Assembly: GCF_054482525.1 (NCBI RefSeq)
Contig: NZ_CM137006.1
Direction: 5' to 3' (one strand)
Length of the DNA stretch: 64,000 nucleotides
Part shown: positions 61,585-64,000 of the stretch, piece after piece
Layout: every line of letters starts with the position of its first letter
Numbering within the stretch: position 1 is the first letter of the stretch
Notes under the pieces: generated by a model
Database searches by the model: none
What the model was told of the DNA's origin: nothing
What the model saw: the letters and a program-made list of their open reading frames with translations, nothing else
Made by a program: the position numbers and the translations under genes

Positions 61585-62694
<1,110 letters not shown>

Positions 62695-62754
62695 TGGGCG
62701 GTATTCTGAAACGGCGATTGTCGTGAGAACAGAATGGTTGCACCAGAATACAGA

Positions 62755-62784
62755 TATAAAAAAACCGACATGACAGTCGGTTTT
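62755..62784. terminator. Bidirectional rho-independent terminator downstream of selU
   Basis: A-run, stem ccgac / gtcgg with loop atgaca, then a T-run; a degenerate second copy lies at 63236-63261. Confidence 0.8.
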
Positions 62785-62845
62785 TTTATTTTTTCCGCCC
62801 AAGACTTGGTGGTTCCGGGCAGAAATGAAACAGTCCTCATCTAGC
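62755..62845 (-). ncRNA. Candidate small antisense RNA (putative type I antitoxin)
   Basis: Near-consensus sigma-70 promoter on the minus strand (-35 TTGAAT at 62880-62875, 17-bp spacer, -10 TATAAT at 62857-62852), predicted start about 62845, ending at the 62755-62784 terminator; contains gctagatgaggactg, complementary to cagtcctcatctagc at 63017-63031 upstream of the small ORF. Confidence 0.45.
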
Positions 62846-63105
62846 AAGTGAATTATAAGTCAGGATGCCTACATATTCAAACAGCTATGTTGGCGATACA
62901 ATCCCGACGCTAGTAGTGATACTGCCTCAAGGGATTACCGCAGTGCGGAAAAGTACTTTTAAGTCCTGGTCAGGATACAGGTGGTGCTGATTCTGGTGCT
63001 CTAATTTGGAGAGAGGCAGTCCTCATCTAGCACATGAAGAAAATCATAGTTACAGGCAACGTAAGGGTAAGCTGTGATTGTCTTTCTCCCTTAAGGGAGC
63101 AACGG

Positions 63106-63189
63106 ATGAAAACTTTTCTCGATAAAGTTCTCATCGTTCTTAAGGCGCTAATCGCGCTGCTGGAACTGATCCGTCAGTTTATTGAATAA
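63106..63189 (+). CDS. Candidate 27-aa single-helix membrane peptide (putative type I toxin, DinQ/ZorO-like)
   Basis: ATG preceded by GGGAG; MKTFLDKVLIVLKALIALLELIRQFIE is one amphipathic/hydrophobic helix; followed by hairpin aaggccgaagg/ccttcggcctt; shares ALIALLELIR with E. coli DinQ as recalled from memory. Confidence 0.5.
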   Translation: MKTFLDKVLIVLKALIALLELIRQFIE

Positions 63190-63292
63190 CTGAGGAAACG
63201 TAGCTAAGGCCGAAGGTTTACCACCTTCGGCCTTTAAAAAAACCGACATGACAGTTGGTTTCATATTTATTGCCAAAATGCACACTGTTCAT

Positions 63293-63390
63293 GCCAGATG
63301 CGGCGTAAACGCCTTATCCGGCCTACACAATCTTGCAAAATCAATATATTGCACGATCCTCGTAGGCCTGATAAGCGTAGCGCATCAGGC
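63293..63390. repeat. REP pair with central IHF-like site (RIP/BIME-type element)
   Basis: gccagatgcggcgtaaacgccttatccggcctac ... aatcaatatattg ... gtaggcctgataagcgtagcgcatcaggc; near-identical to the element at 1464-1561. Confidence 0.8.
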
Positions 63391-63406
63391 AATCTAACGC
63401 CTGTCA

Positions 63407-64000
63407 TCATCCCGCAAACTGCCTGAACAGCGCCTTACCCTTAACCAGTCGCGCACCCAGCCAGCCGCCGAAAAGCGACAGCAGCAGCGCACCGCTGCAC
63501 GGCAGCACAATCCACAATCGCCAGTCTGGCTCCCACGGGAAATCAAACACTTTCGCCTGCAACACTGCCAGCGCCGTTTCCGCACCAATTGCGGCTACCA
63601 GGCCAGAAACAAACCCAAGCATGGCGAACTCACACCACAATGTCGTGCGCAGCAGTTTTTTCCCCGCTCCGAGTGTGCGCCACACCACCAGCTCCTGATG
63701 ACGCTGACGCATTCCCACCTGCACCTGTGCCAGCAACAGCAACATACCGCAGGCGGTGACCAGCACCACCATCACTTCCAGCGCCCGACTTACCTGCTCC
63801 AGCACCTGGCCGACCTGTTTTAAAATCGCGCCAATATCTAACAGGCTAATTGTCGGGAACTGGCGGTTGAGTTGCGTCAACATGCCGTTGCCATTCTCCC
63901 AGCGGAAACTGGTAAGCCAACTCTGCGGTTGTCCGTCTAATGCCCCTTCAGGGAAAATAAAATAGAAATTAGGCCGCAGACTTTCCCAGTCCACTTTGCG
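63407..64000 (-). CDS. ybbP: ABC transporter permease YbbP (FtsX-like), C-terminal part; gene continues beyond the window end
   Basis: Open frame to the window edge; hydrophobic C-terminal segment with stop at 63407. Confidence 0.8.
   Translation of the reverse strand, partial: RKVDWESLRPNFYFIFPEGALDGQPQSWLTSFRWENGNGMLTQLNRQFPTISLLDIGAILKQVGQVLEQVSRALEVMVVLVTACGMLLLLAQVQVGMRQRHQELVVWRTLGAGKKLLRTTLWCEFAMLGFVSGLVAAIGAETALAVLQAKVFDFPWEPDWRLWIVLPCSGALLLSLFGGWLGARLVKGKALFRQFAG

What the first reader, a model, noticed from the sequence alone, without database searches (positions are those of the whole stretch)
62750..63265. Candidate type I toxin-antitoxin cassette between selU and ybbP
Seen in sequence: a 27-codon ORF (63106-63189) with a GGGAG Shine-Dalgarno encodes one hydrophobic helix, MKTFLDKVLIVLKALIALLELIRQFIE. 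About 250 bp upstream on the opposite strand is a near-consensus promoter (TTGAAT, 17 bp, TATAAT) whose transcript would run into the selU terminator, giving an RNA of roughly 90 nt. That RNA carries 15-16 nt of perfect complementarity to cagtcctcatctagc, which is repeated at 63017-63031 in the presumed 5-prime leader of the ORF. The cassette is bracketed by 26-nt direct repeats of the terminator (aaaaaaaccgacatgacagtYggttt at 62755-62780 and 63234-63259), suggesting an insertion or duplication. The arrangement matches dinQ/agrB, zorO/orzO and tisB/istR; the peptide resembles DinQ from memory (about 14 of 18 identities in the core). It may be a known but rarely annotated Zor/DinQ-family locus or a new family member.
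Basis: partly seen in the sequence, partly recalled or inferred. Interest (0 to 1): 0.72.

Follow-up and report, generated by a model that had tools for sequence, protein, structure and literature searches.

The report
Second DinQ/AgrB toxin-antitoxin copy
The region holds a small membrane-toxin gene and its antisense-RNA antidote from the known DinQ/AgrB family; it is a second, apparently SOS-independent copy that about a quarter of E. coli strains carry and that RefSeq already annotates, so it is real but ordinary.

Summary
Window 62757-63242 is a complete type I toxin-antitoxin module of the DinQ/AgrB (dinQ-like, 'dql') family. The 27-aa ORF passes NCBIfam's DinQ model (40.9 bits, cut-off 30). 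The minus-strand RNA passes Rfam's AgrB model (53.6 bits, gathering 40). The leader, -10 box, Shine-Dalgarno hairpin and terminator align with K-12 dinQ and with plasmid and Serratia relatives. The RNA's 5' end pairs with the leader at 63008-63030 (-39.3 kcal/mol; shuffles -21.6 ± 2.6). Across 14 related loci this pairing covaries: 21 of 32 pairs carry compensatory changes. It is not the canonical dinQ. It lies between mnmH(selU) and ybbP, where K-12, B and O157 carry the rhsD island, it has one agr gene rather than two, and it lacks the LexA operator. It occurs in 1332 of 5426 complete E. coli genomes, almost all of which also hold the arsR-gor dinQ. RefSeq already labels it 'dinQ', as a probably over-long 51-aa ORF. 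The dql family was described in 2016, and a plasmid DqlB/agrB pair was validated in 2025. About 14% of carriers have a 108-nt deletion that removes the toxin's start. One genome lacks the 478-bp unit exactly between the terminator repeats. Toxicity and antisense control at this locus remain untested. Novelty: already known. Interest: low.

The parts
62757..62844 (-). AgrB-type antisense small RNA of about 88 nt, the putative antitoxin. Its 5' tail (nt 1-23) is the recognition sequence.
   Evidence: Rfam RF02891 AgrB scores 53.6 bits against a gathering score of 40, full length 1-84. The 5' end is homologous to the K-12 agrB start and lies 7-8 nt after the -10 box.
62852..62880 (-). Sigma-70 promoter of the small RNA: TTGAAT, 17 nt, TATAAT.
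   Evidence: It matches 10 of 12 consensus positions and is the only promoter-like site in 62650-63450.
62756..62789 (.). Bidirectional intrinsic terminator (14-bp stem, A-run and T-run). It ends the small RNA and, on the other strand, mnmH/selU. It is also the left copy of the 40-nt direct repeat.
   Evidence: The stem AAAAAAACCGAC/GTCGGTTTTTT is shared with the K-12 agrA and agrB terminators.
62897..62902 (+). Predicted -10 box (TACAAT) of the toxin mRNA.
   Evidence: It aligns with the conserved GTATAAT/GTATGAT -10 column of 11 related loci. No good -35 box is present, and the simple scan did not call this site.
62909..63242 (+). Predicted primary toxin mRNA of about 330 nt. G62909 aligns with the mapped +1 of K-12 dinQ.
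   Evidence: MAFFT alignment of 12 loci. K-12 numbering was derived from PMC5066626.
62922..62929 (+). Leader 'element 1' (ACUGCCUC). In the full-length mRNA it pairs with element 2. Together with the 5'-end stem GCUAG (62909-13):CUAGC (63027-31), it locks the mRNA in an inactive form.
   Evidence: MFE fold of the full-length RNA. This is analogous to duplex 1:2 and the a/a' stem of K-12 dinQ (PMC5066626).
63008..63030 (+). Target of the small RNA in the 5' UTR. It includes 'element 2' (GGAGAGAGG, 63008-63016).
   Evidence: The duplex has 14 contiguous Watson-Crick pairs and pairs at 22 of 23 positions overall, at -39.3 kcal/mol. Shuffles give -21.6 ± 2.6 with a minimum of -31.6. It is the best non-self site in the whole window. 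The exact 16-mer repeat is shown.
63081..63099 (+). Elements 3 and 4. CUUUCUCCC pairs either with the Shine-Dalgarno GGGAG (63095-63099), closing the ribosome binding site, or with element 2.
   Evidence: Predicted P(unpaired) of the SD is 0.01 for the full-length RNA, 0.14-0.17 for 5'-truncated forms, and 0.01 for the truncated form with the target blocked. The K-12 control gives 0.05, 0.20 and 0.02.
63106..63189 (+). 27-aa DinQ-family toxin ORF, MKTFLDKVLIVLKALIALLELIRQFIE.
   Evidence: NCBIfam NF041472 toxin_DinQ scores 40.9 bits against a cut-off of 30. BLASTP gives 15 of 19 identities with K-12 DinQ. This start position is conserved in 13 related loci, whereas the upstream ATG at 63034 used by RefSeq is not.
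63206..63237 (+). Terminator hairpin of the toxin mRNA (AAGGCCGAAGGT / ACCTTCGGCCTT, then TTT).
   Evidence: 12-bp perfect inverted repeat. It aligns with the dinQ/dql terminators.
63235..63274 (+). Second, decayed copy of the agr terminator. It is the right copy of the 40-nt direct repeat and lies 478 nt from the left copy.
   Evidence: E. coli AR_0077 lacks everything between the two copies.

Best explanation
This is a chromosomal type I toxin-antitoxin module of the DinQ/AgrB family. It is a paralogue ('dinQ-like') of E. coli's canonical dinQ-agrB. The proposed mechanism is inferred from homology and in-silico folding; none of it was shown experimentally for this locus.

- The plus strand yields a primary mRNA of about 330 nt (62909-63242). 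This RNA is translationally inert. Its 5' end pairs with the target region (elements 1:2 and the a/a' stem), and the Shine-Dalgarno GGGAG is shut in a local hairpin (elements 3:4).
- Removal of roughly the first 20-50 nt frees element 2 to pair with element 3. That loosens the SD and allows translation of a 27-aa hydrophobic peptide, which inserts into the inner membrane and is toxic.
- A small RNA of about 88 nt is made constitutively from the near-consensus minus-strand promoter. Through its 5' tail it pairs with 63008-63030. This sequesters element 2, re-closes the SD hairpin, and probably creates an RNase III substrate. The toxin therefore stays off.
- Unlike canonical dinQ, this copy has no LexA operator. 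It is probably not SOS-induced, and its recognition sequence is largely orthogonal to agrB/dinQ.
For: - Family assignment: the peptide scores 40.9 bits on NCBIfam DinQ against a cut-off of 30. The small RNA scores 53.6 bits on Rfam AgrB against a gathering score of 40. BLASTP gives 15 of 19 identities with K-12 DinQ.
- Collinear DNA homology with the K-12 arsR-gor locus covers the sRNA, the leader, the CDS and the region after the stop codon. In a 12-locus alignment the -10 box, the +1 region, the leader blocks GTGGTGC..GTGCTCT..GGAG and GTGACAGGCA, the SD hairpin and the terminator are all conserved.
- Small RNA signals: a promoter matching 10 of 12 positions and a terminator.
- Specific duplex: -39.3 kcal/mol against shuffles of -21.6 ± 2.6, and the best non-self site in 64 kb.
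- Cognate pairs are the best or joint-best in a 10x10 sRNA/mRNA matrix.
- In a 14-locus pairing alignment, 94.4% of cells pair and 21 of 32 pairs carry compensatory changes. None of 500 shuffles reached this, and slid controls paired at 36-43%.
- The SD-accessibility pattern in silico mirrors that of the experimentally characterised K-12 dinQ.
- The cassette is almost invariant. More than 1300 E. coli genomes are at least 99% identical, and Escherichia sp. E1V33 differs by one synonymous change.
- Relatives are experimentally validated: dinQ/agrB (PMC3567139, PMC5066626) and the plasmid DqlB/agrB pair, including compensatory mutations (PMC12365149).
- No CTG-N10-CAG motif occurs anywhere in 62695-63300, whereas canonical dinQ has one at its promoter.
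Against: - No transcript, toxicity or rescue data exist for this locus. K-12 and B strains lack it.
- The duplex is the weakest of the family. It scores -39 to -42 kcal/mol against -46 to -60 for most relatives (three IncX-type plasmid loci are similar, at about -41 to -48), and it is about as strong as K-12 agrA:dinQ (-41.9). AgrA does not repress dinQ (PMC5066626).
- The conserved 3' half of the family's interaction region has decayed here.
- The toxin promoter has a weak -35 box and was not called by the consensus scan.
- The predicted SD opening on truncation is modest, from 0.01 to about 0.15.
- About 14% of carriers have deleted the toxin's start. The toxin is therefore dispensable and may be decaying.
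Confidence: 0.85

Rival explanations
1. The locus is a decaying relic. The sequences are homologous to dinQ/agrB, but the module no longer works as a toxin-antitoxin pair: either the antisense control is lost or the toxin is not expressed.
For: - The duplex is shortened and G-U-rich, with an energy like that of the non-functional agrA:dinQ pair.
- The toxin promoter has a weak -35 box.
- About 179 of 1314 carriers have a 108-nt deletion that removes the target, SD and start codon.
- One genome has lost the whole unit.
Against: - In 1135 genomes the ORF, SD, hairpin, both terminators and the sRNA promoter are intact and at least 99% identical.
- A separate Escherichia species differs by one synonymous change in 478 nt, while the flanking REP region differs more.
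- 14 contiguous Watson-Crick pairs at the sRNA's very 5' end form a better seed than agrA has. The longest uninterrupted agrA run is 9 bp.
- The leader, the sRNA and the mRNA 5' end changed together relative to K-12: UAAC to UAGC, UUAG to CUAG, and GUUAG to GCUAG.
Confidence: 0.1
2. The small RNA's main role is cross-talk. It would regulate the canonical dinQ mRNA or other trans targets rather than, or in addition to, its neighbour.
For: - The window sRNA paired with K-12 dinQ mRNA gives -33.9 to -35.5 kcal/mol, slightly beyond the most extreme of 500 shuffles (-31.6).
- At least 1328 of the 1332 carriers also hold the canonical locus.
- The sRNA gene is retained in the toxin-deleted alleles.
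Against: - The cognate site is clearly better (-39.3 to -42.3). It is also the best non-self site in the window.
- K-12 agrB pairs poorly with the window mRNA (-27.1).
Confidence: 0.05

Closest known systems
[quoted passage not shown]
   Same: - A 27-aa single-helix peptide with the core ..DK..IVL.ALIALLELIR.
- A divergent, non-overlapping AgrB-type sRNA whose 5' end pairs with the leader upstream of the ribosome binding site.
- A primary mRNA of about 330 nt.
- An SD closed in a hairpin, and the logic of four leader elements.
- Matching terminators.

   Different: - A different chromosomal site, mnmH-ybbP.
- One agr gene instead of two.
- No LexA operator.
- An ATG start instead of GTG.
- Three extra N-terminal residues and a shorter C-terminus.
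- A duplex of 22 of 23 positions with 4 G-U pairs, instead of about 31 of 32 Watson-Crick pairs.
- A distinct recognition sequence.
dql (dinQ-like) genes of Enterobacteriaceae chromosomes and plasmids, groups dqlA and dqlB (Kristiansen 2016, PMC5066626). DqlB/agrB of pOXA-48 was validated as an addiction module (PMC12365149).
   Same: - The same family and architecture.
- No LexA operator was found at the promoter in the relatives examined here.
- The paper notes that strains can hold dql together with dinQ.
- AgrB-type sRNAs were found upstream of all 8 plasmid loci examined.
   Different: - It is not DqlB. NF041473 scores 24.5 bits against a cut-off of 35, and the product is 27 aa rather than 31 aa.
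- Its nearest relatives are chromosomal Serratia loci (KT[FL][IL]DKVLIVLKAL..).
- Whether this exact locus is among the 14 Dql peptides in that paper's Figure 3 could not be checked, because figures and supplements are not held.
zorO-orzO and tisB-istR1 (other type I modules with a divergent, non-overlapping sRNA)
   Same: - The gene arrangement.
- A long, processed 5' UTR.
- A small hydrophobic toxin.
   Different: - No membership signal. Rfam OrzO-P scores 24.1 and 19.5 bits against a gathering score of 60.
- Only the DinQ and DqlB models appear in NCBIfam at E-values up to 10.

Membership tests
DinQ/AgrB (including Dql) type I toxin-antitoxin family | Small (27-31 aa) hydrophobic peptide with the DinQ signature (..IIVL..A.IALLELIR..) | tested here: met
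   NCBIfam NF041472 scores 40.9 bits against a cut-off of 30. BLASTP gives 15 of 19 identities with K-12 DinQ. K-12 DinQ itself scores 54 bits.
DinQ/AgrB (including Dql) type I toxin-antitoxin family | AgrB-type small RNA encoded upstream of the toxin gene, on the opposite strand and not overlapping it, with its own promoter and terminator | tested here: met
   Rfam RF02891 scores 53.6 bits against a gathering score of 40 at 62756-62844 (-). The promoter matches 10 of 12 positions and a terminator is present.
DinQ/AgrB (including Dql) type I toxin-antitoxin family | The 5' end of the sRNA is complementary to the toxin mRNA leader upstream of the ribosome binding site, and the complementarity is maintained by covariation | tested here: met
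   Duplex energy -39.3 kcal/mol against shuffles of -21.6 ± 2.6. The cognate/non-cognate matrix is diagonal-dominant. 21 of 32 pairs are compensatory across 14 loci, with 0 of 500 shuffles reaching this. The duplex here is shorter than in other members.
DinQ/AgrB (including Dql) type I toxin-antitoxin family | A leader with four elements that form mutually exclusive structures: the SD is closed in the primary transcript, opened after 5' processing, and re-closed by the sRNA | tested here: inconclusive
   In silico only. P(unpaired) of the SD goes 0.01, then 0.14-0.17, then 0.01, which parallels the K-12 control at 0.05, 0.20 and 0.02. The leader blocks are conserved. No probing data exist.
DinQ/AgrB (including Dql) type I toxin-antitoxin family | The peptide is toxic when expressed, and the sRNA neutralises it by base pairing | not testable with these tools
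   This needs induction and rescue experiments. It has been shown for K-12 dinQ/agrB (PMC3567139) and for pOXA-48 DqlB/agrB (PMC12365149).
dinQ proper (the 'damage-inducible' orthologue, as RefSeq names this ORF) | A LexA operator at the promoter, giving SOS induction | tested here: not met
   No CTG-N10-CAG motif occurs in 62695-63300. K-12 and Escherichia sp. E1V33 canonical dinQ have TACTGTATGATTATCCAGTT or a close variant.
dinQ proper (the 'damage-inducible' orthologue, as RefSeq names this ORF) | [quoted passage not shown] | tested here: not met
   The locus lies between mnmH and ybbP and has a single agr gene. The canonical locus is present separately in 5422 of 5426 genomes.
DqlB subgroup | A 31-aa peptide matching NF041473 | tested here: not met
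   24.5 bits against a cut-off of 35. Plasmid DqlB scores 67 bits.
Zor/Orz | An OrzO/OrzP-type sRNA | tested here: not met
   Rfam RF02083 scores 24.1 and 19.5 bits against a gathering score of 60, and both hits fall on the terminator hairpin only.

The most novel reading that the evidence does not exclude
The 478-bp agr-dql unit, bounded by 26-40-nt copies of its own terminator, may be a gain-and-loss cassette that alternates with the rhsD island at the mnmH-ybbP junction. It would work as an SOS-independent DinQ-type module with its own orthogonal recognition code, giving carrier strains a second membrane-toxin switch that responds to a signal other than DNA damage. The common toxin-start deletions would then record selection against that switch in some lineages.
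Probability: 0.12. Interest if true: 0.4.

Novelty: already known. Interest (0 to 1): 0.15.

Why it matters
The importance is modest. The result shows that E. coli's 'dinQ' annotation covers two different loci. The copy at mnmH-ybbP lacks the LexA operator, so the RefSeq product name 'damage-inducible' is probably wrong for it, and the 51-aa gene model is probably too long. The standard laboratory strains K-12 and B carry the rhsD island at this site instead. This paralogue has therefore escaped experimental study, even though about a quarter of sequenced E. coli carry it. It offers a natural pair of related but largely orthogonal sRNA/toxin modules in one cell. It also offers natural toxin-minus and cassette-minus alleles for studying what chromosomal type I systems are for.

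Tried and rejected
- A LexA box was sought with CTG-N10-CAG and a 20-mer consensus score across 62695-63300. None was found.
- Zor/Orz and other sRNA families gave only sub-threshold Rfam hits, all on the terminator hairpin.
- PADLOC defence models gave no hits for this peptide or three relatives.
- The 51-aa RefSeq ORF was rejected as the product, because its upstream ATG is not conserved in related loci.
- RNAduplex with the full-length sRNA and mRNA was uninformative, because it ignores intramolecular structure. It was replaced by the sRNA's 5' 30-32 nt.
- The genome-contig scan with a 20-mer from the CDS returned mostly chance hits in GC-rich genomes. Only 8 of 70 loci were relevant.
- The supplements and figures of Kristiansen 2016 are not held. 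I could therefore not check whether this exact locus is one of its 14 listed Dql peptides, or whether it is called dqlA.
- My first estimate of about 18 genomes with the 108-nt deletion was wrong. It was corrected to about 179 by a dedicated search.
- REL606 was checked as a possible carrier with published transcriptomes. It has rhsD instead.

Full report
**Setting**

The finding lies in the 713-nt gap between mnmH/selU (61600-62694, plus strand) and ybbP (ends at 63407, minus strand). The gene order matches E. coli. RefSeq strain Ecol_316 is 100% identical over 62700-63300.

**Observation**

- The 27-codon ORF at 63106-63189 has GGGAG 6 nt upstream of the ATG.
- The minus-strand promoter TTGAAT-17-TATAAT (62880-62852) matches 10 of 12 positions.
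- A bidirectional terminator lies at 62756-62789.
- The exact 16-mer CAGTCCTCATCTAGCA occurs twice, at 62831-62846 and 63017-63032. The chance expectation is 0.03 even when 2 mismatches are allowed.
- The terminator is directly repeated. The correct coordinates are 62758-63783's left copy at 62758-62783 and the right copy at 63236-63261, and the repeat extends to 40 nt at 83% identity with a spacing of 478 nt.

**What it is**

The peptide matches only two NCBIfam models. It passes toxin_DinQ at 40.9 bits (cut-off 30) and fails DqlB at 24.5 bits (cut-off 35). BLASTP gives 15 of 19 identities with K-12 DinQ.

Rfam's AgrB model matches the minus strand at 62756-62844, full length, with 53.6 bits (gathering 40).

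A BLASTN comparison with the K-12 arsR-gor region gives collinear patches of 75-85% identity. They cover the sRNA body and terminator, part of the leader, the CDS core and the stretch after the stop codon.

A 12-locus MAFFT alignment used K-12, Escherichia sp. E1V33, six plasmid dql loci, and Serratia and Pantoea chromosomal loci. It shows the following conserved features.

- A conserved -10 box, which is TACAAT at 62897-62902 in the window.
- A conserved transcript start. G62909 aligns with the mapped +1 of K-12 dinQ.
- Conserved leader blocks, the SD hairpin, the start codon position and the terminator.

**Known status**

RefSeq/PGAP annotates this ORF as 'dinQ: damage-inducible type I toxin DinQ', using a 51-aa model at 63034-63189.

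Kristiansen et al. 2016 (PMC5066626) defined the 'dql' (dinQ-like) genes, dqlA and dqlB, in chromosomes and plasmids of Enterobacteriaceae. They noted that some strains carry dql together with dinQ.

A plasmid DqlB/agrB pair was shown in 2025 to be toxic and to be neutralised by pairing, with compensatory mutants (PMC12365149).

**How it differs from canonical dinQ**

The canonical arsR-gor locus is present in 5422 of 5426 complete E. coli genomes. The window-type locus is present in 1332. At least 1328 genomes must therefore carry both. Escherichia sp. E1V33 also has both, as L064 and L065.

K-12, REL606 and O157:H7 have the rhsD island at this junction instead. Homology breaks at about 62744 on one side and about 63400 on the other.

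The window locus has one agr gene, not two. It has no CTG-N10-CAG anywhere in 62695-63300. K-12 and E1V33 canonical dinQ carry the LexA operator over their -10 box. The product name 'damage-inducible' is therefore transferred by homology and is probably wrong here.

The upstream ATG used for the 51-aa model is not conserved in 13 related loci, many of which have in-frame stops. The 27-31-aa start is conserved. The peptide's nearest relatives are Serratia chromosomal loci, (V/M)KTLIDKVLIVLKALVALLELIRQFID and METFIDKVLIVLKAL...

**Antisense pairing**

With the sRNA starting at 62844, its nt 1-23 pair with mRNA 63008-63030. There are 14 contiguous Watson-Crick pairs, then 2 G-U pairs, 2 Watson-Crick pairs, one A-A mismatch, and 4 more pairs of which 2 are G-U. 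The energy is -39.3 kcal/mol.

For comparison, 500 dinucleotide shuffles of the mRNA give -21.6 ± 2.6, with a minimum of -31.6. The next-best site in the whole 64-kb window, on either strand, scores -31.7.

K-12 agrB:dinQ gives -57.4. K-12 agrA:dinQ gives -41.9, and AgrA is not a functional antitoxin (PMC5066626). The energy of the window pair alone is therefore not proof of function. AgrA's pairing, however, is interrupted: its longest uninterrupted run is 9 bp.

In a 10x10 matrix of sRNA 5' ends against mRNAs, the cognate pair is the best or joint-best in every row. The window pair is well separated at -42.3, against -21 to -28 for foreign sRNAs on its mRNA.

I built a 14-locus pseudo-alignment of target plus sRNA. 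It shows 94.4% of cells paired, against 80.9% in shuffles. 21 of 32 pairs have changes on both sides, and 0 of 500 shuffles reach this. Sliding the partner by 1-3 columns gives 36-43% paired.

One caveat applies. The target in each locus was chosen by best complementarity. It nevertheless falls at the homologous leader position in every locus.

Relative to K-12, three changes in the recognition sequence occur in both the sRNA gene and the target. One of them is also mirrored at the mRNA 5' end: GUUAG becomes GCUAG, which keeps the a/a' stem (62909-13 with 63027-31).

**Leader switch, in silico**

The full-length RNA pairs element 1 (62922-62929) with element 2, and the SD is closed, with P(unpaired) 0.01.

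RNAs starting at 62930-62960 mostly (four of the five starts tested) pair element 2 (63008-63016) with element 3 (63081-63089). SD accessibility rises to 0.14-0.17.

Blocking 63008-63030, as the sRNA would, returns accessibility to 0.01.

The same calculation on K-12 +1, +44 and +44 with agrB gives 0.05, 0.20 and 0.02. This reproduces the direction of the published experimental result. The window locus therefore behaves like the characterised system, but this remains a prediction.

**Population variation**

1314 genomes cover at least 80% of the locus, but only 1135 contain 63018-63125. About 179 genomes, roughly 14%, therefore lack that segment. In the allele I aligned, a 108-nt deletion removes the target, the SD, the start codon and six further codons while retaining the sRNA gene. 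Its end points lie in the imperfect repeat AGTCCTCATC / AGTTCTCATC.

One genome, AR_0077, has a single terminator copy and nothing else between the repeats. Its flanks are essentially identical to the window's. This fits loss of the 478-bp unit by recombination between the repeats.

The terminator stem is shared with the K-12 agr genes. The right-hand copy is therefore best read as a remnant of another agr copy, in the manner of the tandem agr-dqlB units on plasmid pKKo009_3. This last point is inference.

**Verdict**

It belongs to a described family and is already annotated. The remaining unknowns are experimental: expression, toxicity, SOS independence and cross-talk.

Noticed in passing
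window 62784-63261; L086 (E. coli AR_0077, NZ_CP026755.1) 1501-1653: One complete genome has an 'empty' mnmH-ybbP junction. It holds a single copy of the 26-nt terminator repeat, and the 478-bp agr/dql unit is missing exactly between the repeats. Its flanks are essentially identical to the window's.
   Followed up: yes
window 63018-63125: About 179 of about 1314 carrier genomes lack this 108-nt segment, which holds the sRNA target, the SD, the start codon and six codons. They keep the sRNA gene. In the allele examined, the deletion end points lie in the imperfect direct repeat AGTCCTCATC (63018-27) / AGTTCTCATC (63126-35).
   Followed up: yes
window 63126-63135: The sequence AGUUCUCAUC inside the ORF (codons 7-10) could pair with sRNA nt 4-13 through 9 Watson-Crick pairs and 1 G-U pair. 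It is a possible second, weaker binding site. The same sequence is present in the Serratia relatives.
   Followed up: no
window 63034-63189: RefSeq/PGAP models the toxin as a 51-aa protein starting at ATG 63034. That start is not conserved in 13 related loci, whereas the 27-31-aa start with its SD is. The public gene model is probably too long, and the name 'damage-inducible' is unsupported because there is no LexA box.
   Followed up: yes
window 63290-63395: REP/BIME-like palindromes lie between the cassette and ybbP. Rfam ES036 (CssrF) matches 63327-63369 on the plus strand at 40.3 bits, above its gathering score of 37.6. naRNA4 matches are sub-threshold.
   Followed up: no
window about 62744 to about 63400, compared with L004, L006 and L085: This 657-nt segment (cassette plus REP elements) is the alternative occupant of the junction that holds the rhsD island in K-12, REL606 and O157:H7. 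Homology to those strains stops about 49 nt after the mnmH stop codon and right at the ybbP stop codon.
   Followed up: partly
L064 and L065 (Escherichia sp. E1V33): A separate Escherichia species carries both the window-type locus and the canonical dinQ locus. The cassette differs from the window's by one synonymous change, while the adjacent REP region differs at several positions.
   Followed up: partly
L011 (plasmid pKKo009_3) 10-1145: Two agr-dqlB units lie in tandem on an IncX1 plasmid. This shows that the family can form head-to-tail arrays in which an agr terminator follows a toxin terminator, as in the window's right-hand repeat.
   Followed up: partly
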